NCBI GenBank assembly: GCA_050246755.1
Contig: JBFWVL010000003.1
Span: 160,001 to 224,000 of the forward strand
Direction of reading: 5' to 3'
Source of the DNA: Bacteriovoracia bacterium
GTDB taxonomy: Bacteria; Bdellovibrionota; UBA1018; CAIPTA01
Length of the DNA stretch: 64,000 bases
Positions within the stretch are counted from its first letter, which is position 1. Every line of letters begins with the position of its first letter. The notes under the pieces are model-generated. The model searched no databases and was not told the DNA's origin. It worked only from the letters and a program-made list of their open reading frames with translations. Of the stretch, positions 40,226 through 57,669 are shown one piece after another. A program made the translations under genes and the position numbers.

Positions 40226-41482
40226 GTGGCCAAACCCCAAATCAGCGTAATTATCTCTGCCAAAAATGAAGCCAATCGATTCATGCCTTGCCTTGAATCG
40301 CTGGCTAAGCAGAAGAGCAAAACCCCCTTCGAAGTGCATTTCGTAGACAACGCCTCCACCGATGGCACTTATGGCAAAGCGCGTAAATGGGTGGAAACGA
40401 ATAAACAGAAAAACTTCTTCGTGTGGCGGGAGAGAAAGCCGGGAAGCCCATCCGCGCGTAACTACGGCGCCCGCCGCGCCCGTGGGCAAATTTTACTATT
40501 TACCGACGCCGACTGCCGCCTCGCTCCCAACTGGGTGCAGGAAATGAGCAAGCCCCTGCTCGAATCCACGCACTACCCCCTCGCGGCGGTGGGCGGGAAA
40601 ACGCTGAGCGAATTTAAGGCGGAAAAACCCAACCTCTGGGAAAAATACCTCGATCAGCTCTTCGATTTCTGGGAGAACGATCGCCTCAATGCCTTTCCGG
40701 CCTTTCTTCCCTGGGCCCCCACCTGCAATCTCGCGGTAAAAAAAGACATCTTCGAGGCCATCGGCGGCTTCGACGAAAACTGGAAGAGCGCCGCCTATGA
40801 CGTGGATCTTTGCTGGAGGATCATTCTCTGCGGCTTCACGCTCGGCTACGCGCCGAAAGCCCAGGCCCGCCACCTCCGCCGCTCTAGCCTGCGCTCCCTG
40901 CTGCGCCAGATGGAGAATTACGCTTTCTATAATTACTCCCTCCTCGCCACCTACGAAAAGCTCCTCAACCTTCCGGCCCTCACGGCGCGAAAAGAGAGAA
41001 TGCTCAGCCGCGGGCGCCGCCTCTTCGCCCTTCTCGGCGACACCAAAAATCTACCCCAGGCCACCTTCCGGGGAATGGACGTACTCGTGGGCCTTTCCGC
41101 GCTGAAGGGCGATCTTGAGGCCCGCGTAGTGGGCGCCAAGGGCAATCCCCGCCTCAACAGCAGCCGCCAGGGAAAAACCCCTGCCGATCTACTGCATCTT
41201 CTGCCCCGTGGTTACGCCCACCTGCACCAGGAGGGATGGTCCTACTGGAAAAGCCCGGCCGACGTGCAGCCCGATACCGGAGATCTTATTTTGTTCCGCC
41301 CCCGCGCCAGCGAACGTTTTCGTTTTAACGAGAGTGCCTGGAGAATCTGGGAAGTGAAATCCGAGGGCGGGCAAAGCGAAGATGCGGCCGAAGCCCTCGA
41401 GCAAGACCCGCACAACAAAAAAGTTCTCTACGATATCGACCAGCTCACCCTCGACCTTCGCTCGAGGAGACTCCTCCCGTGA
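40226..41482 (+). CDS. GT2 glycosyltransferase with C-terminal PqqD/RRE-like domain
   Basis: VDNASTD, ARNYG, FTDADC and DVDLCWR motifs; C-terminal LILF...RFRFNESAWRIWE...AAEAL...DIDQLTLDLRSRRLL resembles PqqD. Confidence 0.85.
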   Translation: MAKPQISVIISAKNEANRFMPCLESLAKQKSKTPFEVHFVDNASTDGTYGKARKWVETNKQKNFFVWRERKPGSPSARNYGARRARGQILLFTDADCRLAPNWVQEMSKPLLESTHYPLAAVGGKTLSEFKAEKPNLWEKYLDQLFDFWENDRLNAFPAFLPWAPTCNLAVKKDIFEAIGGFDENWKSAAYDVDLCWRIILCGFTLGYAPKAQARHLRRSSLRSLLRQMENYAFYNYSLLATYEKLLNLPALTARKERMLSRGRRLFALLGDTKNLPQATFRGMDVLVGLSALKGDLEARVVGAKGNPRLNSSRQGKTPADLLHLLPRGYAHLHQEGWSYWKSPADVQPDTGDLILFRPRASERFRFNESAWRIWEVKSEGGQSEDAAEALEQDPHNKKVLYDIDQLTLDLRSRRLLP

Positions 41483-46477: not shown

Positions 46478-46986
46478 GGAACGCGCTTGAACTTGCCGTT
46501 AATAAAATTGTAAGTGCGATCGCTAACCTTATCGCTGAATTCACCGCGTTCCGTAATGCGAGTCGTCACGCGTCCACGGCGGTCCATGCGAACGGCGCCT
46601 ACGGAATCCACCGGTAGGTAGTCGGTGTCCGCAGATTTTCCCACGATCATCGGCACGAACTTCTTTTCCTTCGCGCTATACTGATAAATATAGAGACCGC
46701 CCGAGATTGGCGAAAACATCACGCGCACCGCGAAGTCCTCGGAACCGTCTGCGTTGAAATCCTGGATCGCGATCGCGGCCTGGTGGCCTTCGTAATCGAA
46801 AGGCACGAAGTCCTCCTCGATTCTCTGATTGTTCCCCGACGGTAAACGCACGCTGAGCACATATTGCCCCTGCGACTCGCGCATGTTCACCGAGGCTTTT
46901 CCGTTCTCGCCCAAGTTGAGTTCCTCGGCCTGAACGGGGGTGGTCACAAATAGTAGGGCGGCGATCAGCCAAAGCTTTAGCGACAT
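46474..46986 (-). CDS. Secreted protein with DxNxDG Ca-binding-like loop; candidate hydrolase inhibitor
   Basis: Signal peptide ending VQA; QDFNADGSEDFAV...YIYQY...KKF; overlaps the upstream GH73 gene by 10 nt. Confidence 0.75.
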   Translation of the reverse strand: MSLKLWLIAALLFVTTPVQAEELNLGENGKASVNMRESQGQYVLSVRLPSGNNQRIEEDFVPFDYEGHQAAIAIQDFNADGSEDFAVRVMFSPISGGLYIYQYSAKEKKFVPMIVGKSADTDYLPVDSVGAVRMDRRGRVTTRITERGEFSDKVSDRTYNFINGKFKRVP

Positions 46987-49706
46987 AATTTCATGTTCTC
47001 CATTTTCTGTAATCCGTTAGAAACAACCATATTGCGAACCTTGGCGCGATAGTCGGGCTCCGGGCAATACTTTTGCAGGCCGTTCACCACGTCGCTCCAG
47101 TTCGCCGGAGCGGGCCTGGCTTCACGGATAGCCGACTTAACTAGCGGGTAGTAGTTACGGTTGGGATTGAGAATATTGGCGGCGTACGCATAAACAGAAT
47201 CCTGGGAATCCTTAAACGCCAGGAAGTATCCGCCGCCGGCGTCACGCTCGCGCGGACGATCGCAGGTGCCAATCACCAGCTTTTCCTGCCCGCGGATAGT
47301 TAGGCGGAATGCCTGGGTAGTGCTCGGGCTCCAACAGGAGTGCCCTAATGCATTTTTTGTGGTCATAAATAGATCGGACTTACCCCAGTGCGATTCTAGG
47401 GCCGCCTGCGCGATAATCACGGACGCGGGCAAACCGGTGGCCTCCTGTACTTCAAGGGCGTAGGGAGTCATATAGTCGATGAAGGCGCGCTTCGTCTGTT
47501 CGATCGATTTGAAATTACGGAAGTTCGGCTTCGGGCGACTACGGGTGTCTTCCACGCAACCGCTTTCGCGGCGGGGAATCGGCGCCACTTTCGGTACCGG
47601 GGGCAAACGGCGCTCGAGGATCTCAGCTTCGGCCCGAGGGCGTCCGCGCGGCGCCCGTACCGGTATCTCTTCTTCTTCGTCCTCGTCTTCCAGCGCCACC
47701 GCTTCTTTTATGGTGCGGGGAAGATTTTTCAGCACTGCCTGCCCCTGGTGATCCACCCCGGTGATGCCGCAATTCTTCAGCGAGTTCAGATCCACTTGGG
47801 TTCCGTTCGCGATAGCGTCGAGACCGATCTTCACATCAGCGAAGCAAGCTTCGGATTCACAATACTGAATATTATTTCTCTGCGACCAGGGCATGAAAAT
47901 CCAGCGCACTTCTCCGTCGGCCAGAATTTTCGTGGCCACGCCTTCTTCCGTCTCGTATTGGTTCAGCACGGGATAAAAAGCGCCTTCGTTGCTCTGGAAT
48001 GCGATATTATCCTTATTGTCTTTTTCGAAATCCGGCGTGGTACGCACTCGATACCCGGTGGTATTGATGCGCACGTATTTCGGGATCCGCTTCATCTCGA
48101 GGTAAGTATCGATATCCACCGGCAAGTGCTCCTGCACGGGGGCATCATCGTTCTCTATGATCGGCTCAAACTTCGCGGCGTCTTTGGCGTGAAAGCTTTC
48201 ACCGTAACGGGTTTGGTCTTTCGGCACCACCGACATGCCGGCGGCGGCGGGTTCCACGATGCGGGCGGGAGCCACGGGCGCGGGCACTACGGGGCTCGGC
48301 GCGGTTTCAGGCGGAAACTCGTCGGCGGAAGGGTACATGGCTCCCTCTCCTTCGATGCGGGGAATATTTTCCAGGTTCTGCGCGCTGCCTACTCCCGAAG
48401 GAATAATTTCTTCCACTTCCGCCGGGGGAACAGTAGGTTCTTCGGCGGGATACATCGCGCCTTCGCCTTCGATGCGTGAAATTACCTTTAATTTTGGCGC
48501 GGTGCCTACGGGGGCCGGCACTATTTCCTCAATCTCTGGAGAAGCAGTAAAGGCCTCGGGCGCAACGGCATCTCTCGCCGTTTCGCTGATGGGAGGAAGA
48601 ATTGGAGCATGTTCACTCACTGCGGGAGCTTGCGCCGATACCTTATTATCCGCACCGATTTCGGGAGACCAAGGCTCCACTTCCTCTACAGGAGCAGGCC
48701 TACTAACTACGGCCGAGGCCCCTGGCTTCGCCGGAATCACGGCTTGCGGGCGCTTGCCCTTATCACCTTTGTTATAGTCGGTATCAAAGTCATCTCCGGG
48801 AGAGGGCGGAACGATGCCCACTACGCGCTGGCCTTTGTCGCCCTTACCGGTGTCTTTATCATTAGGAACGATCACGGGAACCGGCTTACGGCTAGAACCC
48901 GAGCTGGGCGGAATTACCGCCCGGGGGCGTTTTCCTTTGTCGCCCTTACCGGAATCGAAATCATCGCGGGGAGCGGGAGGCACAACCACTACTACGCGCT
49001 TGCCCTTATCGCCCTTGCCGGAATTAGTTTCGGAATCATCTTTCGGCGCGGGAGGCACAACTACCACCACGCGCTTGCCCTTATCGCCCTTGCCGGAATT
49101 AGTTTCGGAATCATTTTTCGGCGCGGGAGGCACAACCACTACTACGCGCTTGCCCTTATCGCCTTTACCCGAGCTAATCTCGGAATCATCTTTGGGCGCC
49201 GGGGGAACTACCACCACCACGCGTTTACCCTTATCTCCCTTTTCGCTCACGCGCGGGACGGGCGGCGGCAGGATTGTGGTCACCGTTTCTTTTTTTCCGT
49301 CGTCTTCTTCATCGTCAAAAAATTCCTCTTCGGCCGGCACGGGAGGCAAAATCGCTTTTACGCGCGAATTTTTCTTGGCCGAATCCACGGTGCGCACCGG
49401 GGCCTTCATCAAAATAAATTTTACAGCCTTTTTCTTCTCCGCTTTTTTCTCCGTCTTCTTCTTCGCAAGAGGCTTCACGGTCGCGGGCAGGGGCATTTTC
49501 TGCTTGGAAATTTTAACCGCCGTATTTTTCTTCGTAATCGGCTTCACGGGTTCGGCATGGCCCTCGCCATTGGCGGGTGCGTTCACTTCTCCCTCGATCT
49601 CATTGCCGAAATCGTCGGTAAGATTCGTAACGGGTGCCGCGAACGCCGGAGCCGTCCAAAAACTCAGGAGCAGAAATATTGCGACGCTGTTCTTAACCAC
49701 AAACAC
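46977..49706 (-). CDS. Large secreted protein: Pro-rich repeat region + SH3-like domain + GH73 glucosaminidase (FlgJ-like)
   Basis: Signal peptide ending AFA; C-terminal TGLPASVIIAQAALESHWGKS, NALG and YCPEPDY motifs. Confidence 0.85.
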   Translation of the reverse strand: MFVVKNSVAIFLLLSFWTAPAFAAPVTNLTDDFGNEIEGEVNAPANGEGHAEPVKPITKKNTAVKISKQKMPLPATVKPLAKKKTEKKAEKKKAVKFILMKAPVRTVDSAKKNSRVKAILPPVPAEEEFFDDEEDDGKKETVTTILPPPVPRVSEKGDKGKRVVVVVPPAPKDDSEISSGKGDKGKRVVVVVPPAPKNDSETNSGKGDKGKRVVVVVPPAPKDDSETNSGKGDKGKRVVVVVPPAPRDDFDSGKGDKGKRPRAVIPPSSGSSRKPVPVIVPNDKDTGKGDKGQRVVGIVPPSPGDDFDTDYNKGDKGKRPQAVIPAKPGASAVVSRPAPVEEVEPWSPEIGADNKVSAQAPAVSEHAPILPPISETARDAVAPEAFTASPEIEEIVPAPVGTAPKLKVISRIEGEGAMYPAEEPTVPPAEVEEIIPSGVGSAQNLENIPRIEGEGAMYPSADEFPPETAPSPVVPAPVAPARIVEPAAAGMSVVPKDQTRYGESFHAKDAAKFEPIIENDDAPVQEHLPVDIDTYLEMKRIPKYVRINTTGYRVRTTPDFEKDNKDNIAFQSNEGAFYPVLNQYETEEGVATKILADGEVRWIFMPWSQRNNIQYCESEACFADVKIGLDAIANGTQVDLNSLKNCGITGVDHQGQAVLKNLPRTIKEAVALEDEDEEEEIPVRAPRGRPRAEAEILERRLPPVPKVAPIPRRESGCVEDTRSRPKPNFRNFKSIEQTKRAFIDYMTPYALEVQEATGLPASVIIAQAALESHWGKSDLFMTTKNALGHSCWSPSTTQAFRLTIRGQEKLVIGTCDRPRERDAGGGYFLAFKDSQDSVYAYAANILNPNRNYYPLVKSAIREARPAPANWSDVVNGLQKYCPEPDYRAKVRNMVVSNGLQKMENMKLCR
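48305..48535 (-). repeat. Two-copy 117-bp (39-aa) intragenic repeat
   Basis: EEI(V/I)P..VG.A..L..I.RIEGEGAMYP occurs twice, offset by 117 nt. Confidence 0.85.
48735..49243 (-). repeat. 75-bp (25-aa) intragenic tandem repeat: about 4 good and 3 degenerate copies
   Basis: GCGCTTGCCCTTATCGCC-like unit at 48996, 49071, 49146 and 49221; KGDKG(K/Q)R occurs 7 times. Confidence 0.92.
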
Positions 49707-49858: not shown

Positions 49859-50527
49859 TTAGGACTTTGGAAAGAGCGTGGGAACTTCGAGGCCGAGCGC
49901 GCCGAGCCCTACACGGTAAGCCTGGGAAGCTCGCCAGAGCAGCAAGCTGCGCCGGCCGCCGAGGAAGCGGTCTTTAAGCTCGTGAGTAAACATAAAAGCT
50001 TGGGCACCCAGAAGATAATAGCGGAAGCGGGATTCTTCCAAGGACCATTTCCGGAAAGAAATATTACGGCCGCGTGGGTCTTTGGCTCCCTCTACCCTTC
50101 CCAAAATTCTTTCGGCCGTCACGAGGGAGGCGGAAAAAGTATTGTCGCCCGCTTCGAGAAAAAGATTTCCGGTACGGCCGATTAGGCGGTGCACCCGAAG
50201 CTGCGCTTCTCCGCTGCGCGCACGCGCCTCCACCACGATGAGATCGCCGGGCGACAAAAATTCAGGATTTATTTTTCGGTAGCGGATGCGGTAGCCGGGC
50301 CGTAAGATCGGCCACATCGAGACGCCCTCCACCACGGCCTCTTCAGTTTTGCGTGAAGCCTGGGGGGCAAGAGACTGGACAAAAAGTTTGGTAGCGAGCC
50401 TTTCGTGCCGCGAATGTTTTCGCGCCGATTGCTGGCTAGAAGTAAGCGTGGACCCGTTTGATCTTTTCGTATTTCGTGAGGGTCGGCTTTTGGTAGGTTT
50501 TTTTGGACTTCCCAGTTTTTTTGACAT
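49859..50527 (-). CDS. S24/S26-family peptidase (Ser-His type, no signal anchor); start uncertain
   Basis: GVSMWP, GDLIV, VHRLI, GDN and ILGRV motifs; the first ~30 codons overlap the precursor-peptide ORF in another frame. Confidence 0.8.
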   Translation of the reverse strand: MSKKLGSPKKPTKSRPSRNTKRSNGSTLTSSQQSARKHSRHERLATKLFVQSLAPQASRKTEEAVVEGVSMWPILRPGYRIRYRKINPEFLSPGDLIVVEARARSGEAQLRVHRLIGRTGNLFLEAGDNTFSASLVTAERILGRVEGAKDPRGRNISFRKWSLEESRFRYYLLGAQAFMFTHELKDRFLGGRRSLLLWRASQAYRVGLGALGLEVPTLFPKS

Positions 50528-50540
50528 TTTCCTTCGTCAT
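50436..50540 (-). CDS. Putative RiPP-type precursor peptide, 34 aa (MTKENVKKTGKSKKTYQKPTLTKYEKIKRVHAYF)
   Basis: Translated by hand; TAAGGA SD 7 nt before the ATG, 10 nt after the PqqD stop; YQKPTL matches the YxxPxL leader motif. Confidence 0.8.
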   Translation of the reverse strand: MTKENVKKTGKSKKTYQKPTLTKYEKIKRVHAYF

Positions 50541-50550
50541 ACGACGGTCC

Positions 50551-50850
50551 TTATTCTTGAAACTCTAAGAGCCGCTCAGCCAGAAGCTGACCGCAAAACT
50601 CCAAAGTGTCTTTTTTCGCTTGTTCCAACTCGCAATCATACTCTAAGCGCAGGGATTCAATCAAATCCTTCACGGTTTTGGGCTTTTCCGCCACCACCGA
50701 CCAGAGATGCGTTCCCACGCGATCCAGCGCAAAATAATCTCCACTGCCAAAATGCAGCAGCACGGCTTCCCCGTCCACCGACTTCCAGTGAACATTTTTC
50801 GATTTGCGCACCTGGGTGGCTTCGCTGATCTTCGAAAACTTCATGTCCAA
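50551..50850 (-). CDS. Stand-alone PqqD/RRE family protein
   Basis: VDGEAVLL..GSGDYFALDRVGTHLW, LRLEYD, DTLEFCGQLLAERLL. Confidence 0.93.
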   Translation of the reverse strand: MDMKFSKISEATQVRKSKNVHWKSVDGEAVLLHFGSGDYFALDRVGTHLWSVVAEKPKTVKDLIESLRLEYDCELEQAKKDTLEFCGQLLAERLLEFQE

Positions 50851-50876: not shown

Positions 50877-52928
50877 TCAAGGGGACACCGCCTCGCGAAG
50901 GTCTAAGGGAGAAATAGAATGCTCTGAATAAAATTCAGCCTCCTTGGTTTGCTGCATAGCGGCTTTGTCGCCTTTGGCCCGAAGCAGCTCGGCGTATTCC
51001 TGACGAAGGGCCGGGTCGTCACTATGCACCCTCACCAACTGGCCAAGCGCGTCAGCAGTGCGCAGAATATCTTTACGGGCCCGAAAAATCTGCGCGAGCT
51101 TACGGTAGAGGGAAGGAGGAAAGCGGCGGTAGCCACGGTATTGAAGGGCCGCTAGTTCGTACTGCAATAAGGCCGCGGGCTCCCGATTTTCCAGCATATA
51201 GAGGTCCCCTAGCTCTTCGCGTTTGGTCCAATAAGGAAAGTATTTGCCGGGAAACTGCGCAAATACGTTTTCGTAGTCGGCGATCGCAGCCCGGCGGTTC
51301 CCCGACTTGGCGTAGTACTGGGCGCGCAGTAGGTAAAAAGTATTATTGGTGAGGTTAGGCTCCCGCGTGCGCGCAGAAAGTTTCGCATCCTGGAATTTTT
51401 CCGCGGCGGCCTCCCAGGCTACGAGCCAGTGATCGTCGGGTAAAGAATTCAGGCCGGCGGTGAGAAGAATCACGGCGTTCCAAAAATCATCTTTCCCGCC
51501 AAGCAGCGCCGCTCCCCGCTTCCAAATACTGCCGCCTTCCCGCTGTAGGCGCTGGTGAAGCACGCTGGCGGCGGACCGTACGGCGATTTCCTGCTCTTCG
51601 AACGTGAGATTTCCGGGCCGGAGGCCTTCGAGGTATTTTAGGAGAATAGGAAGTGCTTCCTCTCCGCCGCGAAACCGCTGCGCGCGTGCGCTCCAAGTAT
51701 TAAAAACGATGCGGAATTTTTTTGGGTATTTCTGGTAGGCGTCTTGCCATAAGGATTCCGTGCTTTGCCAAACCGCGATGCGAGGAGCCGTAGCGAAGAC
51801 CGCTACTGCGAGCAGGGCCGAAAACGGGACCGCCCAAAAAATCTTTCCTGTTTGGGAGGCAAGTTTTAGGAAGAGCGCCGTGAACAACCAGGCAAACGCG
51901 GGCAGAGCCAGATAGAGATGCCGTTCCGCAAAGGGATCAAGCACGGGAAAAATAGAATTGGTGATGGAGAGCGCACCGAAAATCCAGAGCACGCAGAAAA
52001 AAACGGGGGCGCGGCTTTTCCGGAGAGCGTAAAAGAAAACAGGCAACGTTGCCCAAACCGCCAGACCGCAAAGAACATTCGGGTCTTTCCACGAGTCAGG
52101 AAAGGAAATCTGGTGATCGATGGCCTGGAGATCGGGGCGGAAAAATAGGCGGAGGATATTCGGCCACTGCGCCACTGCGATCGGCCAGTAGTCGCGAATC
52201 GAAAAAATATCTAAGTCGCCCCCGATTTGATAGAAGCCGCTGCTCGCCCCCACGAGGTAAGGCCATTTCAGTATCGCCCCCGCCGCGCCCGCCGCCAACA
52301 AAGGCGCGCAGTACGGTAAAAGCTCCACCCAGCGGCGGCCTAAATAGGCATGGTACAGCAGTAATAGCGGAAGCAGGGCCAGGGCGCTCTCTTTGGTTAA
52401 AAAGGCGGCGGCGGCGGCGATCATGAATCCCAGCCAAGACCAGAATCCGGGTCGTTCCCTCCCGTAACACCAGAGCGCACAGAGCAGAAAAAGCAATACC
52501 ATCAGCGAGGAACGGCCAGATAAATAGACCACCGAGTCCACCGCGAGCGGATGCAATAAAAATATTCCGCCCGCCAATACCCCGCCCAGCGCAGCGCCCT
52601 CCCGGCGCCGGAAGAGGCGGAAGAAAAACAAGCCCACGAGCAGCGCATTGAGTGCGTGAAAAAGCAGGCTCGGCGCCCGCAGCGCGGAGAGTGAAAGCCC
52701 GGCCGCGGCATAGCTCAGCGCGAAGCTCAGGCTCGTGAGCGGGCGGTTCCGCGAATGCTCGCTCTCGATGAAGATGCGCGGGTGAGCAAGGTAGCGGATC
52801 GCGCGATTATCGATCACGTTGGAGGCATCGTCGAATTGATAGGGAAAAGGCAAGGAAGGCAAATAGAGAAAAAGGTAAACCCCTACCAGCCCCGCGATCA
52901 CCGTAAATAGAAAAAATTTAAAGCGCAT
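50877..52928 (-). CDS. TMTC-like GT-C membrane glycosyltransferase with C-terminal TPRs
   Basis: FDD...IDN, RPL..LSF, HPLAVDSVVYLSGR, KESA and AERHLYL motifs; TPR-like helices. Confidence 0.85.
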   Translation of the reverse strand: MRFKFFLFTVIAGLVGVYLFLYLPSLPFPYQFDDASNVIDNRAIRYLAHPRIFIESEHSRNRPLTSLSFALSYAAAGLSLSALRAPSLLFHALNALLVGLFFFRLFRRREGAALGGVLAGGIFLLHPLAVDSVVYLSGRSSLMVLLFLLCALWCYGRERPGFWSWLGFMIAAAAAFLTKESALALLPLLLLYHAYLGRRWVELLPYCAPLLAAGAAGAILKWPYLVGASSGFYQIGGDLDIFSIRDYWPIAVAQWPNILRLFFRPDLQAIDHQISFPDSWKDPNVLCGLAVWATLPVFFYALRKSRAPVFFCVLWIFGALSITNSIFPVLDPFAERHLYLALPAFAWLFTALFLKLASQTGKIFWAVPFSALLAVAVFATAPRIAVWQSTESLWQDAYQKYPKKFRIVFNTWSARAQRFRGGEEALPILLKYLEGLRPGNLTFEEQEIAVRSAASVLHQRLQREGGSIWKRGAALLGGKDDFWNAVILLTAGLNSLPDDHWLVAWEAAAEKFQDAKLSARTREPNLTNNTFYLLRAQYYAKSGNRRAAIADYENVFAQFPGKYFPYWTKREELGDLYMLENREPAALLQYELAALQYRGYRRFPPSLYRKLAQIFRARKDILRTADALGQLVRVHSDDPALRQEYAELLRAKGDKAAMQQTKEAEFYSEHSISPLDLREAVSP

Positions 52929-53955
52929 GTTCCAGGAGTTTTTTGCGTCGCAGCCCCCAGCTCAGCAGGGCCCGTGCGAAACCGAATCCATACGCCAGGT
53001 GGATCCAGGGAAAAAGTCCGGCGGCAAGCCAACCCGCACGGTCGCGCGTGGCGAACGAGGTGGTGAACAAGGCCACCAACAGGGCGTAGGAGACGAGCGG
53101 CAAAAAGGCCAAGGGAGACGCGGAAAAATAAGGGAGGCAGAGGAGATAAAACAGGAAAAAAGTGGGCAAAAAGTAGAGAGGACGCAGCGTATGGGGCAGC
53201 AGCAATAAATTTTGTGCCCTGCCCGCTCCGTATTTCGCGGCCTGCTCCCAAGTTCCCGCCCACGTTTCGCGGCGGCGATGGTAAACGGCGAGCCGCGGCG
53301 AATGCCAAAGCTTCGTGCCCGGATGGTCGAGCTGCTGGAGCAGCACATTCTCTTCGTTCGAGATCAAGTGCGTGGCGAATCCGCCCTGCGCGAAAAACGC
53401 CTCTCGCCTTATGGCGAGATTGCAGAGAATTAGCGCATGCTCGCCGCTTGGTCCCTCGGCCAGCTGGCGGTAGCGCCCGCGCATCGAAGCAGCTCCAAGG
53501 TAGGAAGCCAGCACGAAACCGGCCGCCCTCTCCAGTGCACCACTGTCGGGAGGAGTGAGATTGGCGCCGCCGGCGGCCAGTAGCGCGGGATCGCGAAAAA
53601 GCGCAGAGGCCGCTTTGCCTAAATCTTGAAAGCATTCGATATCGTCATCGAGAAAAAGCAAAAGTTCCCCGCGAGCCTGGGCTACGCCCAAATTCCTTGC
53701 TGCGCCGGGTCGCCGGCCACTGGCCTCTAGCACCAACAAAGGGAAGTCTGCGTTAGCCAATAACTCTGCGCTAAATCGCAGCACCTCGGCGGAAGCCCCG
53801 TTTAGCACCAGCACGAGCTCCCAATCCTCCAGCGTGGAATGAGCGCGAAAACTCGAGATGGCCCTGGCCAATAAATCGGCACGGCGAAACCCCAGGATCA
53901 CCACGCTCAACGCCGGCTGAGCACTATTCCATTTCGGGTTCGTTTGGGTTTGCAA
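52918..53955 (-). CDS. GT2 glycosyltransferase with C-terminal TM segments
   Basis: ARNLG, FLDDD, CNLAIRR and NEE motifs; start moved to TTG 53955 (AAGGAG SD), which removes the overlap with the kinase gene. Confidence 0.88.
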   Translation of the reverse strand: MQTQTNPKWNSAQPALSVVILGFRRADLLARAISSFRAHSTLEDWELVLVLNGASAEVLRFSAELLANADFPLLVLEASGRRPGAARNLGVAQARGELLLFLDDDIECFQDLGKAASALFRDPALLAAGGANLTPPDSGALERAAGFVLASYLGAASMRGRYRQLAEGPSGEHALILCNLAIRREAFFAQGGFATHLISNEENVLLQQLDHPGTKLWHSPRLAVYHRRRETWAGTWEQAAKYGAGRAQNLLLLPHTLRPLYFLPTFFLFYLLCLPYFSASPLAFLPLVSYALLVALFTTSFATRDRAGWLAAGLFPWIHLAYGFGFARALLSWGLRRKKLLEHAL

Positions 53956-54040
53956 CGCAAAACTCCTTATCTTTTTGCCGGCGGGGAGAAAGAAGGCCCT
54001 TTCGCTTGAATCCGCCTCGGCCTTGCCATAGATTTCCCCC

Positions 54041-55084
54041 ATGGTGGCCCTGGAAACCCGCAAAGGCAAACATTTTTGCTTGCACGGCATCGCCGTGGAA
54101 CTGCGCGGAAATCGCGTTGACCGCGTTGCGGGCGATTTTGATTTTTATACGGGCCGCGCCATCACGGGAAAAGAAAAATACCGCGTGATGCTCGAGCTCG
54201 GCCCGGCGAGCGCGGTGAAGTTGCCCGCGGTGGCCGCCGAGAGAGTTTTTTCCGATTGCGTGCTCTATCGGGAAGGCGAAAAGCTTTTTTACGAATATTC
54301 CGGAGGCGCCGTTCTCGAAGTGGAAAGAGGAAAAACTTTTTCCCGCGGCCGCCTGAGTTCCGACAATACGGATCTCGCCGACGAAATCGCTTACCTTTAT
54401 CTACAATCGGAAATTGGCCGCTTCCTCGATGCCCAGGGCTTGCACCGCGTGCACGCGCTCGGGATCGGCCTTCCCAGCGGAAAAGCCGCGCTGGTATTGC
54501 TGCCGAGCGGGGGCGGGAAAAGCACGCTGGCGCTTGAGCTTCTCCAGCAAGAAGGCTGCGTACTGCTTTCCGACGACAGCCCGCTCGTGGACCGGGTCGG
54601 CCGGGTATACCCCTATTTGCTGCGGCTCTCTTTTCGCCCCGACGCCAAGCTGCCCGCTGCCTGGAAAGAAAATTCTCTCCCCTTCGAGCGGCGTAAACAC
54701 GGGCCCAAGATCCTCGTTTCGCCCGCCTCGCTCTCCTCGGCCGCCCTTCCGCGGCCCGAAGACCGCTTTGCCCCAGGATTTTTGGTGATCGGTAGCCGGC
54801 ATGGCGCGCTCGCGGAGCCGCGTCTCGTAAAGAGAGCCAAGTGGCAAAGCGCGCTTCCCCTTTTTCGCGATCTAGTGGTGGGCCTGGGCGTGCCGCAGGT
54901 GGCGGAGCTTCTGCTCACCAAGGGAATTCTTAGCCTTCCCGGCCTCGCTCCCACCGGCGTATCCCGGCTGGCGGCCGCCTCGGCTTTTCTCGCTCGCGCC
55001 CACACATTCGAGCTCGAGCTTTCCCGGGATCCCGTGCGCAATGCCCGTTTCTTAATTGAAACGCTCGAGGCCAACGCGCGATGA
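54041..55084 (+). CDS. HprK-related kinase
   Basis: VHALG...LPSGGGKSTLA...G..LLSDD signature. Confidence 0.8.
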   Translation: MVALETRKGKHFCLHGIAVELRGNRVDRVAGDFDFYTGRAITGKEKYRVMLELGPASAVKLPAVAAERVFSDCVLYREGEKLFYEYSGGAVLEVERGKTFSRGRLSSDNTDLADEIAYLYLQSEIGRFLDAQGLHRVHALGIGLPSGKAALVLLPSGGGKSTLALELLQQEGCVLLSDDSPLVDRVGRVYPYLLRLSFRPDAKLPAAWKENSLPFERRKHGPKILVSPASLSSAALPRPEDRFAPGFLVIGSRHGALAEPRLVKRAKWQSALPLFRDLVVGLGVPQVAELLLTKGILSLPGLAPTGVSRLAAASAFLARAHTFELELSRDPVRNARFLIETLEANAR

Positions 55085-55863
55085 AACGCTTCTGCGCGAT
55101 TTTCAAGCCCCGCTCCCGTGAGTTGATGCGCACGCTGATGCGGATGGAGCTCTCGCTCATGGAGCAGGGCACACTCTTTGGCTTCGTGCTTTCCTTCCTG
55201 AACAATATCCTGATGCTGCTCGTATTCCACGCGCTCTTCGTGACCCGCTTCATCTCGGAAGTGCCCAATACCTGGGTGTACCTCCTGCTCGGCATCGTGC
55301 AGTGGAATCTCTACATGAATATCTCGCTCGCGGGCTTCGCCTGCTTCGTGTACCGCCAGAAACTAGTGATGGGGTATTCTTTTCCGCGGGAAAAATTAAT
55401 CCTCGCCCGTACCGCCGCGATCTTCGTGCCCTATATCATCGAGCTCACCCTGATCCTCGGCGTAGCTCGCTACTTTCACCTGCCGTTCACCTGGAAATAT
55501 GCCTGGCTTCCGCTCTTCCTCCTCAATCAGTTCCTCTTTTGCGCCGCGATTTGCGCCGTGTTCGCGTTCGTTGGGGTGCTCCACAAAAACATCATTCCCT
55601 TCTGGAACCTAATGTTCCGCCTGCTGTCGTTCGCCACCCCCATTTTTTATATTCCCTTCCATTTCAAAACCTGGTGGGTAGAAGGCCTGTATAATTTGAA
55701 CCCCTTTACGATCTTCATGCTTTGGGTGCGCGATATCGCCGGCGCGAACGGCTTCGCTTTCGAATCCAAGCCCCTGAATATAACCCTCGCCTCGGCCGCG
55801 ATGTTCCTGGGGGCCTATTTGCTTTTCCGGATTATGGAAGCGCGCGTAGGTGACAACCTATGA
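55081..55863 (+). CDS. ABC-2 polysaccharide export permease (Wzm-like)
   Basis: LFGFVLSFLN, FATPIFY and LNPF motifs; about 6 TM segments. Confidence 0.82.
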   Translation: MKRFCAIFKPRSRELMRTLMRMELSLMEQGTLFGFVLSFLNNILMLLVFHALFVTRFISEVPNTWVYLLLGIVQWNLYMNISLAGFACFVYRQKLVMGYSFPREKLILARTAAIFVPYIIELTLILGVARYFHLPFTWKYAWLPLFLLNQFLFCAAICAVFAFVGVLHKNIIPFWNLMFRLLSFATPIFYIPFHFKTWWVEGLYNLNPFTIFMLWVRDIAGANGFAFESKPLNITLASAAMFLGAYLLFRIMEARVGDNL

Positions 55864-56549
55864 GCGAGCTGATCGTCACGCGCGGCCTCACCAAGGCATT
55901 CCCCCGCCACAAGGGCGCGCGCACCGTGGTGAAGAAAATCGCCCACCTCACTTGGATGCGCGAGTTCGTGCCCGTTTTCGAGGGCGTTAACTTCCGCCTG
56001 AAAGCCGGTGAAAGCGTGGCTTTGCTTGGTCCGAATGGCTGCGGCAAGAGCACTTTTCTCCGCTGCTTGGCGGGCGTAATTGCTCCCACCGCCGGCGAAA
56101 TATTCCATCGGGGAAAGACCGTGGCCTTGCTCTCCCATGGATTCGGCAACTACGACGAGCTCGCCGTTTGGCAGAGCATCGTATTGGCCCAGCAGCTTTT
56201 CGGCGCTTCGCTGGCCGAGGCTAAAAAGAATATCGAGCAAGTGGGGGCATTCGCCGGAATCGAAGACCGGCTAAAAGACCCTTCTTCTCAGCTATCCGAG
56301 GGAATGCGCGCAAAGATTTCCCTTTCGGCGCTCGCCTTCGCGGAATTCGACGTGGCTCTCCTGGACGAAAGCCTGAACCACGTAGACGCCGATTTCCGCC
56401 AGCAATACCTCGAGCTGACACGGAAGTGGATAAGGGAGGGCCGCAGTCTCATCCTTACCTCCCACGATGAGCAGCTCCCCTTGCGTTTCGCTAATCGCTT
56501 GCTGAGGATCGAGAACAAAAAACTGACGCCGGCCAGCCGAACGAGTTAA
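55860..56549 (+). CDS. ABC polysaccharide export ATPase (Wzt-like, no C-terminal carbohydrate-binding domain)
   Basis: GPNGCGKST, LSEGMRAK, LLDE...VDADF and TSHD motifs. Confidence 0.85.
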   Translation: MSELIVTRGLTKAFPRHKGARTVVKKIAHLTWMREFVPVFEGVNFRLKAGESVALLGPNGCGKSTFLRCLAGVIAPTAGEIFHRGKTVALLSHGFGNYDELAVWQSIVLAQQLFGASLAEAKKNIEQVGAFAGIEDRLKDPSSQLSEGMRAKISLSALAFAEFDVALLDESLNHVDADFRQQYLELTRKWIREGRSLILTSHDEQLPLRFANRLLRIENKKLTPASRTS

Positions 56550-56559
56550 AATAGGGCCC

Positions 56560-57669
56560 ATGCCCAAGAAGATCAAAGTCATCACCAGCGATATGCACCT
56601 CTCCGCGGGGCGCTTCGTGGATGGCGTGCAGAACCCCCACGAAGATTTTTTCTTCGACCGCGAGTTCTGCGAGTTCATGGAATATTTTTCCAGCGGCAAA
56701 TACGGCGACGGCTGCGAAGTGGAGCTCATCCTCAATGGCGACGTGCTCGACTTCCTCAACGTGCAAACGCAGGGTGAGTTCGCCGACGTGGTTACCTCCG
56801 AAATCGCGGTCGAGAAATTGCGCGCTATCCTCGCCGGCCATCCGGAAGTGGTGGCCACCATGCAGCGTTTCGTGCGCAAGCCGGGCAAAAGAATTCTCTA
56901 CAACGTAGGCAACCACGACCTGGATTTATTTTTTCCGGCCGTGCGCGAAGAGTTTTGCCGGGCGATCGGCGGCGAACACTGGAAGCCCGAGCAAGTGTGG
57001 GTGAACGTGGAGACCGAGCTCCTCGCCTATCCCGAAGGAATCGAGGTACACCACGGGAATCAGTTCGAGGCCGTGCATACCACCAACTACCAGCAGCCCT
57101 TCGTGACCGAAAACCTGCCCGAGCCCATCCTCTACCTGCCCTGGGGCTCTGTATACGTGATCAAGATCATCAATCGCCTGAAGTGGGAGCGCGACTATAT
57201 CGACAAAGTACGCCCCGCTAAGCTCTTCATGGCGATCAGCTTGATCTTCGATCCCATCTTCACGCTGAAATTCTTCATTCTTTCGGCGTTCTACTTTTTG
57301 CACACGCGCTTCATCTATAACCCGCGCCGCCGCGCTACGATCACCAATACCCTCGAGATCATGAAGGAAGAAATCACGCCCTTCTACGGCCTCGAGGACG
57401 ACGCCCGCGCCATTCTCGACCAGAGGCCGAATGTGCACACCGTGATCTTCGGCCATACCCACGGCCCCATGCAACGCTTCTACCGCGACGGAAAAACGTA
57501 TATCAATACCGGTACGTGGACGCGGATGATCAACCTGGATTTCCGTAACCTCGGGCAATCCGCCAAGCTTACCTTCGCTTATATCGAGTACGACGATGAG
57601 GGTAAGCCGCGCGCTACCTTAGAGGAATGGCTCGGCCTTCATCACCCGCACCGCCCGTTTAATTTTTGA
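56560..57669 (+). CDS. Calcineurin-like metallophosphoesterase (paralog 2)
   Basis: SDMH, NGDV, GNHD, HGN, FGHTH and YINTGTW motifs. Confidence 0.88.
   Translation: MPKKIKVITSDMHLSAGRFVDGVQNPHEDFFFDREFCEFMEYFSSGKYGDGCEVELILNGDVLDFLNVQTQGEFADVVTSEIAVEKLRAILAGHPEVVATMQRFVRKPGKRILYNVGNHDLDLFFPAVREEFCRAIGGEHWKPEQVWVNVETELLAYPEGIEVHHGNQFEAVHTTNYQQPFVTENLPEPILYLPWGSVYVIKIINRLKWERDYIDKVRPAKLFMAISLIFDPIFTLKFFILSAFYFLHTRFIYNPRRRATITNTLEIMKEEITPFYGLEDDARAILDQRPNVHTVIFGHTHGPMQRFYRDGKTYINTGTWTRMINLDFRNLGQSAKLTFAYIEYDDEGKPRATLEEWLGLHHPHRPFNF

What the first reader, a model, noticed from the sequence alone, without database searches (positions are those of the whole stretch)
50436..50540. Hidden 34-aa precursor with a lasso-type leader and a two-residue core (VHA|YF)
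Seen: MTKENVKKTGKSKKTYQKPTLTKYEKIKRVHAYF has a good SD (TAAGGA, overlapping the PqqD stop). It is below the ORF-track cutoff and is masked by the peptidase ORF. Known: in lasso leaders Y, P and L sit near -17, -14 and -12 from the cleavage site. Applying that register (Y16, P19, L21) puts the cut after Ala32, giving V-x-A at -3/-1, which is the small-residue rule of S26 signal peptidases. The lasso Gly(-8) and Thr(-2) are replaced by Glu and His, and there is no Asp/Glu in the tail for a macrolactam. Inference: the core is only Tyr-Phe, so the peptide is a carrier or primer rather than a lasso peptide.
Basis: partly seen in the sequence, partly recalled or inferred. Interest (0 to 1): 0.88.

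Follow-up and report, generated by a model that had tools for sequence, protein, structure and literature searches.

The report
Conserved mini-precursor nested in peptidase gene
A real, very strongly conserved 34-residue peptide gene lies between a peptide-binding chaperone gene and a signal-peptidase-like gene, which it overlaps out of frame. It looks like the substrate of a recently described peptide-modification pathway, except that only two residues would remain after the predicted cut.

Summary
The ORF at 50436..50540 (-) exists as described and is a real gene. Ten other loci carry it directly after the PqqD gene. The last 19 residues are almost invariant. Pairwise codon differences in that block are 385 synonymous against 20 non-synonymous. 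[quoted passage not shown] An ABC-2 exporter and glycosyltransferases complete the block, inside a polysaccharide locus. The closest known system is the Bacillota "LPP" family (Popov et al. 2026, PMC13381572), which has the same RRE, SpI-like peptidase and HprK-like kinase. This one sits in a single Bdellovibrionota family. It lacks the NTP transferase, the MsbA-type pump and the Ser acceptor. Its precursor ends 2 to 4 residues after any known cleavage register. A GT2-RRE fusion gene lies 9 kb away. Verdict: new variant of a known kind. Product and role are unknown.

The parts
50436..50540 (-). 34-aa peptide gene (stop TAG 50436-50438). The N-terminal 15 residues are Lys-rich and variable. Residues 16-34, YQKPTLTKYEKIKRVHAYF, are nearly invariant.
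50548..50553 (-). Shine-Dalgarno-like TAAGGA that includes the PqqD stop codon, 7 nt before the peptide ATG
   Evidence: SD-like 4-mers lie between -4 and -16 of the ATG in 10 of 11 loci.
50551..50850 (-). Discrete RRE (PqqD family, 99-aa ORF). Asp81 and Phe85 are invariant in 10 of 10 orthologues.
   Evidence: Pfam PF05402 5.8e-15. Profile against PDB: TbiB1 6.2e-14, 9x90_B 3.3e-11, 9x8z_B 0.0085. Invariant columns.
49859..50527 (-). Archaeal-type signal-peptidase-I-like (S26) peptidase, 222 aa. Its start ATG at 50525-50527 lies inside the peptide ORF. Invariant Ser70 (50318-50320), His113 (50189-50191) and Asp128 (50144-50146). It also has a conserved C-terminal two-helix domain.
50436..50527 (-). 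92-nt out-of-frame overlap of the peptide gene and the peptidase gene. The peptidase reads in frame +1 of the peptide.
50877..52928 (-). 683-aa polytopic membrane protein with C-terminal TPRs. Similarity to PMT_2 (GT-C) is below threshold only.
52918..54090 (-). GT2 glycosyltransferase of 390 aa with a hydrophobic C-terminus. Best NCBIfam hits are MftF-like and EpsD-like, both far below their cut-offs.
54041..55084 (+). P-loop kinase of the HprK-related / PEP-carboxykinase fold, transcribed divergently
55081..56549 (+). ABC-2 permease (55081..55863) and ABC ATPase (55860..56549)
56560..57669 (+). Metallophosphoesterase-like protein, the best-conserved gene of the block (71-79% identity). In G008 it is the direct neighbour of the peptide variant.
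40226..41482 (+). GT2 glycosyltransferase with a C-terminal PqqD-like (RRE) domain at residues 355-417. It is a possible second reader of the peptide.

Best explanation
The ORF encodes a ribosomal precursor-type peptide of an LPP-like pathway. Shown: the gene is under strong purifying selection in its own frame. It is always flanked by a discrete RRE and an S26 (archaeal signal-peptidase-I-like) peptidase. Both sit in a syntenic block with an HprK-related kinase, an ABC-2 exporter and glycosyltransferases. Inferred: the RRE binds the YQKPTL stretch as lasso and LPP RREs bind [Y/W]xxPx[L/V], and presents the C-terminal end to the peptidase. The peptidase most likely cuts V30-H31-A32 | Y33-F34. 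Only Tyr-Phe (Tyr-Val in one relative) would then lie beyond the cut. Tyr33 is invariant and carries the only hydroxyl in the tail. It is therefore the likeliest site for the kinase and/or a glycosyltransferase. The product would be a very small modified Tyr-Phe unit exported by the ABC-2 pump, or used as a primer in the surrounding polysaccharide pathway. The peptidase is translated from an ATG 13 nt downstream of the peptide's ATG in another frame, without an SD of its own. This would give much peptide and little enzyme (inferred).
For: Translation and selection: all 10 other loci found have the ORF, and the codon statistics are. Four further called proteins among 1.84 billion representatives and a G008 variant all end A-Y-[F/V]. 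Synteny of the whole block is shown. RRE: PF05402. The nearest solved relatives are lasso and LPP RREs. The Asp-x-x-x-Phe pair aligns with LppB 'DIEAF'. The paper assigns LppB D70 to the Tyr hydrogen bond and F74 to packing against Pro. That pair is invariant here. Peptide motif: PF19397 in 6 of 11 and NF033528 in 3 of 11, both below threshold and both on residues 13-24. Peptidase: TIGR02228 in 11 of 11, best 4.7e-8. Ser70, His113 and Asp128 are invariant. The six best fold matches are all signal peptidases: SEC11C 7p2q_A, SpsB and SipA, at E about 1e-2. Kinase: PEPCK-like fold at 9e-9. Of 43 family members, 28 hit HprK_rel_A, 16 hit HprK_rel_B and 9 hit HPr(Ser) kinase. Precedent: LppS needs LppB to cut LppA (PMC13381572, sections read). 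Cut site: in 16 variants -1 is Ala in 16 of 16 and -3 is Val in 15 and Ile in 1. Position -2 is H, R, Q or F. This is the pattern expected for S26 enzymes under the -3/-1 rule, which I recall from general knowledge.
Against: No experiment shows binding, cleavage or modification. LppS, the only characterised enzyme of this kind, cuts after F-E-T with Tyr at -16. In that register the cut here would fall after His31, and the phospho-acceptor Ser+3 would align with Phe34. LppK did not accept Tyr in place of Ser. There is no Ser in the conserved block. The RRE is closer to the lasso RRE TbiB1 than to LppB. The peptidase matches to family and fold are all below curated or strict thresholds. In G008 a diverged copy of the peptide sits alone next to the metallophosphoesterase gene. 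No RRE, peptidase or kinase lies within the 20 kb examined. The peptide may therefore have a role that does not need them. Invariance of every residue from 16 to 34 is more than a plain leader needs.
Confidence: 0.5

Rival explanations
1. Leader-only adaptor or regulator. The peptide is never turned into a product. It acts as a permanent RRE ligand that solubilises or activates the RRE, or as a pseudo-substrate that gates the peptidase or the RRE-fused glycosyltransferase, which act on something else.
For: The peptide is as long as the conserved N-terminal motif of LPP precursors (19 positions from Tyr) and stops there. All 19 residues are invariant, as expected for a peptide contacted along its whole length by several partners. 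LppB is insoluble without its leader. The G008 copy persists without the neighbouring enzymes.
Against: No second precursor-like sequence was found in the own genome. The protein search found 1 match at E<=10. Of the 9 motif-scan hits in six frames, only the peptide itself matched both patterns. The V-x-A pattern ahead of the tail looks like a cleavage site.
Confidence: 0.2
2. Carrier or primer. The whole peptide, or its first 32 residues, is the working molecule. Sugars and/or phosphates are built on Thr20, Thr22, Tyr24 or Tyr33 by the RRE-guided glycosyltransferases and the kinase. The peptidase only trims or releases it.
For: The locus is full of glycosyltransferases. One GT2 carries its own RRE-like domain in 5 of 5 orthologues and stays within 5 kb of the peptide in G008. 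The membrane protein with weak GT-C similarity and TPRs, and the ABC-2 (Wzm/Wzt-type) pump, fit a glycoconjugate export route. Comparable BGCs lie inside capsule loci.
Against: No acceptor site is defined. Thr20 is Val in one locus and Thr22 is Asn in one relative. Nothing links the GT2-RRE fusion to this peptide except distance. The fusion gene is 62 kb away in G006, and there the match stops before the RRE-like part.
Confidence: 0.17
3. LPP register. The cut falls after His31 with Tyr at -16, as in LppA, releasing Ala-Tyr-Phe.
For: The only characterised SpI-like RiPP peptidase uses Tyr at -16. Ile27 then aligns with the conserved Ile at -5 of the LPP motif.
Against: Position 31 would be -1, yet it varies among H, R, Q and F across variants. 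Position 29, which would be -3, is Arg, where LppA has Phe in a hydrophobic cleft.
Confidence: 0.1
4. Chance ORF, or a shadow of the peptidase reading frame.
For: It is short, below usual gene-calling cut-offs, and overlaps a longer ORF.
Against: 385 synonymous against 20 non-synonymous pairwise codon differences. The amino-acid sequence of the overlapping frame is invariant at only 4 of 18 columns. The copy in G008 is intact although the +1 frame there is full of stops.
Confidence: 0.01

Closest known systems
LPP ('linear polyphosphorylated peptide') gene clusters of Bacillota: LppA, LppB, LppS, LppK, LppD, LppN (Popov et al., Nat Commun 2026, PMC13381572; Introduction, four Results sections and the Discussion read)
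   Same: [quoted passage not shown] An HprK-like kinase and an exporter are present. The cluster is embedded in a polysaccharide locus. The precursor carries YxxPx[V/L] near the N-terminus. There is no lasso cyclase. A helix precedes the catalytic Ser of the peptidase, as in LppS, where helix alpha1 touches the RRE.
   Different: Found in Bdellovibrionota rather than Bacillota. No NTP transferase lies on the contig. The pump is ABC-2 type, not MsbA-like. The extra genes are a GT2, a GT-C-like/TPR protein, a metallophosphoesterase and a GT2-RRE fusion. The precursor is 31-40 aa with an invariant tail of 2-4 residues, instead of 35-200 aa with a variable core. There is no Ser acceptor. The rest of the LPP motif (H, Q, F, E, T, S) is not shared. 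The RRE is nearer to lasso B1 proteins than to LppB. The precursor gene is nested in the peptidase gene.
Lasso peptide precursors and their B1 RREs (TbiB1/TbiA, 5v1u and 5v1v)
   Same: The YxxPxL leader motif. The RRE's best solved relative is TbiB1 at 6.2e-14. There are weak hits to lasso-precursor profiles.
   Different: No B2 cysteine protease family match in the own genome. No cyclase lies on the contig. The tail is too short and has no Asp or Glu for a macrolactam.
Mycofactocin: MftA, MftB, MftC, MftE, MftF (PMC7491314, passages read)
   Same: A precursor of about 30 aa is bound by an RRE chaperone. The core is a two-residue aromatic/aliphatic C-terminal dipeptide (Val-Tyr there, Tyr-Phe or Tyr-Val here). 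A peptidase releases it. A GT2 lies in the cluster, and the 390-aa GT2 here has MftF as its best NCBIfam hit at 79 bits against a cut-off of 280.
   Different: No radical SAM enzyme lies in the window. The peptidase is S26-like. That MftE belongs to another family is recalled, not tested. The GT2 similarity is generic, since EpsD scores almost the same.
Secretory signal peptides cut by type I signal peptidases (SipW, SEC11)
   Same: The peptidase fold and triad, and a V-x-A motif before the putative scissile bond.
   Different: The peptide has no hydrophobic core region. The predicted secondary structure of the peptidase and its sequence show no obvious N-terminal membrane helix; no transmembrane prediction was run. 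Substrate delivery would be by an RRE, not by the Sec machinery.

Membership tests
LPP-type RiPP cluster (PMC13381572) | SpI-like (archaeal-type signal peptidase I) leader peptidase with catalytic Ser/His/Asp | tested here: met
   TIGR02228 in 11 of 11 orthologues, best 4.7e-8 and all below the 51.85-bit cut-off. S70, H113 and D128 are invariant. The top six fold hits are signal peptidases at E about 1e-2.
LPP-type RiPP cluster (PMC13381572) | Discrete RRE encoded next to the peptidase | tested here: met
   PF05402 at 5.8e-15. The adjacency holds in all 9 other loci that reach far enough upstream; L019 holds only the last 25 residues of the gene.
LPP-type RiPP cluster (PMC13381572) | HprK-like kinase in the cluster | tested here: met
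   The window protein alone is weak (TIGR04355, 15 bits). Within its family, 28 of 43 members hit HprK_rel_A, 16 hit HprK_rel_B and 9 hit HPr(Ser) kinase. The model has a PEPCK-like fold at 9e-9.
LPP-type RiPP cluster (PMC13381572) | NTP transferase (LppN) | tested here: not met
   PF00483 gives 8 matches in the own genome, none on contig C3. PF14907 gives 1 match, on C2. Which Pfam family LppN belongs to is not stated in the text I read.
LPP-type RiPP cluster (PMC13381572) | MsbA-like exporter | tested here: not met
   The conserved pump is an ABC-2 permease (PF01061) plus a separate ATPase. I did not search the window for a fused MsbA-type gene.
LPP-type RiPP cluster (PMC13381572) | Precursor with YxxPxVLxHQxIxFETxxS, cut after T-1, Ser+3 phosphorylated, variable C-terminal core | tested here: not met
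   Only Y, P, the hydrophobic residue at +5 and Ile at +11 are shared. There is no Ser. The peptide ends at the position of Ser+3.
LPP-type RiPP cluster (PMC13381572) | RRE belongs to the LppB clade | tested here: inconclusive
   Profile against PDB: TbiB1 6.2e-14, PbaB1 (9x90_B) 3.3e-11, LppB (9x8z_B) 0.0085. No tree was built.
Lasso peptide | Leader with [Y/W]xxPx[L/V/I/F/A] | tested here: met
   YQKPTL. Y and P are invariant in 16 of 16 and L is Ile in one.
Lasso peptide | B2 transglutaminase-like leader peptidase | tested here: not met
   PF13471 gives 0 matches in the own genome, which is 95.7% complete.
Lasso peptide | Asn-synthase-like macrolactam cyclase in the cluster | tested here: not met
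   PF00733 gives 6 matches, on contigs C1 and C8 and none on C3.
Lasso peptide | Core of about 15-25 residues with Asp or Glu at position 7-9 | tested here: not met
   At most 4 residues follow any known register, and none is acidic.
Mycofactocin-like | Radical SAM maturase (MftC) with the RRE | tested here: not met
   PF04055 gives 23 matches in the own genome. The only one on C3 is at 274502-274996, outside the window.
Mycofactocin-like | Short precursor whose core is the C-terminal dipeptide | not testable with these tools
   The sequence pattern fits, but the cut is not shown.
Sec-type signal peptide | Hydrophobic h-region before the A-x-A site | tested here: not met
   The peptide is Lys-rich and has no hydrophobic run.

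The most novel reading that the evidence does not exclude
A ribosomally encoded Tyr-Phe unit is the whole core of a RiPP. A lasso-type RRE and a cytoplasmic signal-peptidase-like enzyme release a modified dipeptide, phosphorylated or glycosylated on Tyr. That dipeptide serves as a small exported signal or cofactor, or as the primer of a surface polymer. This would be the second two-residue-core pathway after mycofactocin, made without a radical SAM enzyme. Its gene is nested out of frame in the 5' end of its own peptidase gene, so that one mRNA stretch sets the substrate-to-enzyme ratio.
Probability: 0.3. Interest if true: 0.8.

Novelty: new variant of a known kind. Interest (0 to 1): 0.62.

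Why it matters
SpI-like leader peptidases entered the RiPP field only in 2026, in the LPP paper. Its Discussion describes LPPs and paeninodins as restricted to the Bacillota, and the final products and roles of that family are still unknown. This locus shows the same core trio of RRE, SpI-like peptidase and HprK-related kinase in an unrelated Gram-negative lineage. Here it is attached to a precursor stripped down to the recognition motif plus an invariant A-Y-F end. Such a minimal, invariant substrate is an easy handle for finding out what this enzyme trio really makes. The substrate is one 34-mer with one likely cut site and one hydroxyl in the tail. It also offers a clean natural case of a substrate gene nested out of frame in its enzyme's gene. 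If the peptide is glycosylated by the RRE-fused GT2, it would link RiPP-style substrate recognition to polysaccharide loci.

Tried and rejected
1. Complex prediction, with RRE, peptidase residues 40-222 and the peptide as partner. The verdict was 'no answer': score 0.81, but 0.77 when the peptidase was swapped for an unrelated protein. No contacts were given. I do not use it for or against binding.

2. The look-up of sequencing runs: no RNA holder listed. Seven DNA runs from 5 studies hold the stretch or part of it. I laid no reads.

3. Promoter and terminator scan: counts at shuffle level (2 against 1.8, and 12 against 9.5). Nothing usable.

4. Peptide against PDB sequences: 0 matches. Peptidase against PDB by sequence: only a weak signal peptidase I hit (4nv4_A, E 0.28) and chance allophycocyanin rows. 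The 683-aa membrane protein against PDB: 0 matches.

5. ESM Atlas: best score 0.85, to unnamed clusters. The nearest named cluster, a lasso leader family, scored 0.76. This is a lead only.

6. Weak peptidase look-alikes elsewhere (L026-L029) lie inside unrelated long ORFs, some next to radical SAM matches. I judged them irrelevant.

7. Phylum search with the peptide profile: 31 of 401 genomes at E<=0.1, but only G000, G004, G006, G007 and G008 are below 1e-4. The other 26 have E of 0.002 or more; most of the listed ones lie in long Lys-rich frames, a few in short frames or frames with stops. I treat them as chance.

8. The open +1 frame across the overlap is not decisive on its own. Resampling synonymous codons gives 0.09-0.86 per locus. 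The argument rests on the conserved ATG, the missing alternative starts and the open linker.

9. Context of the diverged relatives P0148-P0150 could not be seen.

10. Supplementary data of PMC13381572 (lists of SpI homologues and precursors) are closed. They may include non-Bacillota clusters.

Print check: searches for LPP/SpI-like terms, PqqD + HPr kinase + signal peptidase, RRE-Finder terms and Bdellovibrionota + RiPP returned no description of this system. One search returned only PMC13381572 on the topic.
Full report
**Observation.** On the minus strand an ATG at 50540 opens a 34-codon frame that ends with TAG at 50436-50438. It encodes MTKENVKKTGKSKKTYQKPTLTKYEKIKRVHAYF. The upstream ORF 50551..50850 is a PqqD-family protein (Pfam PF05402, 5.8e-15). 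Its TAA stop is part of a TAAGGA motif that ends 7 nt before the peptide ATG. The downstream ORF 49859..50527 overlaps the peptide ORF in another frame.

**Is it a gene?** Searching relatives with the PqqD protein found orthologues of 60-70% identity in four genomes of the same family. Each has the small ORF directly after PqqD. A back-translated pattern scan found the same four species records among 185,579 species genomes; they are titled Oligoflexia, Bdellovibrionales or Bdellovibrionota MAGs. Thirty-nine stretches matched a pattern and 4 were confirmed. A metagenome scan found six contigs: 66 stretches matched and 6 were confirmed.
- In all 11 loci the last 19 residues are YQKPTLTKYEKIKRVHAYF, with two exceptions: T20V in L021 and L21I in L018. 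The frame always stops right after Phe.
- The RRE next to it is only 55-72% identical and the peptidase 37-56%.
- In the 19-codon block, variable sites by codon position are 3, 1 and 15 of 19. Pairwise codon differences are 385 synonymous against 20 non-synonymous. The same DNA read in the peptidase frame is invariant at 4 of 18 columns.
- The peptide frame is therefore the one under selection. SD-like 4-mers lie between -4 and -16 of the ATG in 10 of 11 loci; in the eleventh, L018, the only one is at -20.

**More distant relatives.** A profile search of 1.84 billion representative proteins gave 4 proteins at E<=0.001. They are 33-40 aa long. P0147 ends ...RVHAYF like the window peptide; the other three end ...RVRAYF...RVQAYF and ...RVVFAYV. 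A six-frame search of the phylum added a 31-aa ORF in G008 ending ...RIRAYF. Across the 15 aligned sequences Y16, K18, P19, K23, Y24, E25, R29, V30, A32 and Y33 are invariant. The G008 variant keeps Y16, P19, Y24, R29, A32, Y33 and F34, has Ile at 30, and changes some of the other positions. Every one of the 16 variants ends exactly two residues after the Ala.

**A nested gene pair.** In all 11 loci the +1 frame is open from an ATG at nucleotide +14 of the peptide ORF (+17 in L015) down to the catalytic Ser-Met-Trp-Pro of the peptidase.
- That ATG is built from the invariant Asn codon AAT plus a following codon that always starts with G. The following residue is V, A, E, D or G, in a region where the peptide otherwise varies.
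- In L019 there is no other ATG, GTG or TTG before the catalytic Ser. In L021 there is only a TTG, also inside the peptide ORF. In the window the only other candidates are two GTGs, 4 and 5 codons before the Ser. Those GTGs would cut off a helix predicted at residues 32-52, which is conserved in 9 of 11 orthologues.
- Leu21 is always CTC or CTT; the other four Leu codons would put a stop in the +1 frame. Ile27 is never ATA. Codon resampling shows that this alone is only suggestive, at 0.09-0.86 per locus.
- In G008 no peptidase follows, and there the +1 frame is full of stops.
- I conclude that the peptidase gene starts inside the peptide gene, with a 92-nt overlap at 50436..50527.
- Public gene calls disagree on the start. 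Thirteen of the 26 database relatives are 150-157 aa long. That is the length obtained by starting at the Met after the catalytic Ser, which cannot be right.

**The neighbours.** tblastn of the window's proteins against the ten loci shows one syntenic block. One arm reads ABC ATPase, ABC-2 permease and kinase. The divergent arm reads GT2, membrane/TPR protein, RRE, peptide and peptidase. In most loci the central part of the 909-aa repeat protein follows, together with a convergent 733-aa double glycosyltransferase. L018 lacks the membrane/TPR gene.
- The peptidase hits the archaeal-type signal peptidase I model TIGR02228 in 11 of 11 orthologues, best 4.7e-8 and all below its cut-off. Ser70, His113 and Asp128 are invariant. 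Its AlphaFold model has mean pLDDT 75.7. The best six PDB matches are human SEC11C, S. aureus SpsB and S. pyogenes SipA, at E 0.01-0.02 and none below 0.001.
- The kinase model (pLDDT 91.3) has the PEP-carboxykinase fold at 9e-9. Of 43 family members, 28 match HprK_rel_A, 16 match HprK_rel_B and 9 match HPr(Ser) kinase at E<=0.01. The window protein itself reaches only 15 bits.
- The 683-aa protein has TPRs. Its PMT_2 hits are all below threshold: the window protein plus 2 of 5 orthologues scanned.
- The wider window is a polysaccharide locus with GT1, GT2 and GT4 genes and an NAD-dependent sugar epimerase/dehydratase.

**What is known.** Full-text search led to Popov et al. 2026 (PMC13381572). 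I read the Introduction, four Results sections and the Discussion. They describe 'LPP' clusters.
[quoted passage not shown] The clusters are often embedded in capsule loci.
- Precursors are 35-200 aa and carry YxxPxVLxHQxIxFETxxS. LppS cuts after T-1 only when LppB is present. LppK polyphosphorylates Ser+3.
- SpI-like peptidases had not been seen in RiPP pathways before. The Discussion describes LPPs and paeninodins as restricted to Bacillota. The final product and role are unknown.
- The terms Bdellovibrio, Proteobacteria and Pseudomonadota do not occur in the main text.
- My other literature searches found nothing on such a system in this lineage.

**Comparison.** The core trio matches. Two further details fit.
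- The RRE profile aligns Asp81-x-x-x-Phe85 with 'DIEAF' of chain 9x8z_B (LppB) and with 'DLRDF' of TbiB1. The paper assigns LppB D70 to the hydrogen bond with the leader Tyr and F74 to packing against Pro. Asp81 and Phe85 are invariant in 10 of 10 orthologues. The residue mapping is my inference from the D-x-x-x-F spacing.
- The peptidase has a helix just before the catalytic Ser. In LppS the corresponding helix alpha1 touches the RRE-leader sheet.

The differences are clear.
- No NTP transferase lies on the contig.
- The pump is ABC-2 type.
- The accessory genes differ.
- The RRE is closer to TbiB1 (6.2e-14) and PbaB1 (3.3e-11) than to LppB (0.0085).
- The peptide stops at the position of Ser+3, since 19 positions from Tyr make up both the whole LPP motif and the whole conserved block here.
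- No Ser exists in the block.

It is not a lasso system. Pfam PF13471 gives 0 matches in the 95.7%-complete genome. All six Asn-synthase matches lie on other contigs.

**Where would it be cut?** Known registers put the aromatic residue at -15 (PbaA), -16 (LppA) or -17. These leave HAYF, AYF or YF. The variation among the 16 variants separates them.
- Position 32 is always Ala.
- Position 30 is Val in 15 and Ile in 1.
- Position 31 is H, R, Q or F, and P0150 carries one extra residue before it.

An invariant small -1, a hydrophobic -3 and a free -2 are what S26 enzymes require, by the -3/-1 rule that I recall. So V-x-A|Y-[F/V] is the best-supported site. It remains unproven, and LppS itself uses F-E-T.

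**Distribution.** The peptide profile matches 6 of 127 genomes of the class at E<=0.001, all in one family. That is the own genome plus 5 of the 8 others, and 2 of the 5 other genomes of its genus. The peptidase was found in 4 of 401 sampled genomes of the phylum, again only in that family. Only 26 peptidase relatives, all at least 48% identical, turned up among 325 candidates in the 5.8-billion-protein collection. The kinase family is wider: 302 proteins, some named from Acidobacteria, Thermodesulfobacteriota, Proteobacteria and Chthoniobacterales. I could not see their contexts.

**A second RRE and the G008 case.**
- A whole-genome PqqD scan flagged the C-terminus of the 418-aa GT2 at 40226..41482. 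All 5 of 5 orthologues match PF05402 there at E<=0.1. The best is 4.6e-5, or 24 bits, just over the cut-off in G008. The window copy reaches 16 bits.
- That gene lies 5-10 kb from the peptide in G003, G004, G007 and G008. In G006 it is 62 kb away, and the match stops before the RRE-like part.
- In G008 the diverged peptide ORF sits next to the orthologue of the metallophosphoesterase gene (74% identity). No RRE, peptidase or kinase lies within the 20 kb examined. G008 is 86% complete and has other PqqD and SpI-like genes on other contigs.
- These facts fit a link between the peptide and RRE-guided glycosylation, but they do not prove it.

**Mechanism and odds.**
- Best reading, 0.5: an RRE-presented mini-precursor cut by the SpI-like peptidase before Tyr-Phe, with Tyr33 as the modified residue.
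- Rivals: a leader-only adaptor or regulator (0.2), a whole-peptide carrier or primer (0.17), the LPP register (0.1), and a chance ORF (0.01).
- Mycofactocin is a precedent for a roughly 30-aa precursor with an RRE chaperone, a C-terminal two-residue core, a releasing peptidase and a GT2 (PMC7491314, passages). No radical SAM gene lies in the window.

**Limits.** Nothing here shows binding, cleavage, modification or expression. The complex prediction gave no verdict. No RNA data were found.

Noticed in passing
window 40226..41482 (+); L062-L065: A GT2 glycosyltransferase carries a C-terminal PqqD-like (RRE) domain at residues 355-417. All 5 of 5 orthologues match PF05402 at E<=0.1, best 4.6e-5. 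The gene lies 5-10 kb from the peptide gene in four genomes.
   Followed up: partly
L033:1492-1587 (+) = G008:C24:10511-10606: A diverged 31-aa copy, MRKQKTQKKVKTYEKPVLIHYKKVKRIRAYF, stands alone beside the metallophosphoesterase orthologue. No RRE, peptidase or kinase lies within the 20 kb examined, and the +1 frame is closed there.
   Followed up: partly
window 56560..57669 (+): The metallophosphoesterase-like gene at the end of the kinase/ABC operon is the best-conserved protein of the block, at 71-79% identity in five genomes. Each of those genomes also has a paralogue of 33-37% identity.
   Followed up: partly
window 46977..49706 (-): A 909-aa secreted-looking protein has five or more tandem copies of a repeat of about 25 residues (...GKGDKGKRVVVVVPPAP...) and a C-terminal glucosaminidase domain (PF01832, 2.3e-14). 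Only its central part (about residues 445-703) is conserved downstream of the peptidase in other loci.
   Followed up: no
window 50498..50504 and 50516..50522 (-): Two A7 runs lie in the Lys-rich part of the peptide ORF. Runs of 6 or more A occur in 10 of 11 orthologous ORFs. They may simply be Lys codons, or they may be slippage-prone sites that link the two overlapping frames.
   Followed up: no
G000:C5:116670-116918 (L009); G003:C67 (L011): The own genome has a second discrete PqqD gene (34% identity) with no obvious partner. In G003 another PqqD gene directly follows a 287-aa P-loop protein of HprK-like appearance. This may be a separate RRE system.
   Followed up: no
proteins P0001-P0026: Thirteen of 26 public gene calls for the peptidase are 150-157 aa long. 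That is the length expected if the call starts at the Met just after the catalytic Ser, so those calls lack the active-site Ser. The small peptide gene appears in the representative library only 4 times.
   Followed up: partly
proteins P0092-P0146: The HprK-related kinase family reaches about 35% identity in proteins named from Acidobacteria, Thermodesulfobacteriota, Proteobacteria and Chthoniobacterales. Whether those sit with RREs and short peptides could not be checked.
   Followed up: no
window 49859..50030 (-), peptidase residues about 166-222: The peptidase has a conserved C-terminal two-helix domain with invariant H182, E183 and K185. It matches no family and has no assigned role.
   Followed up: no
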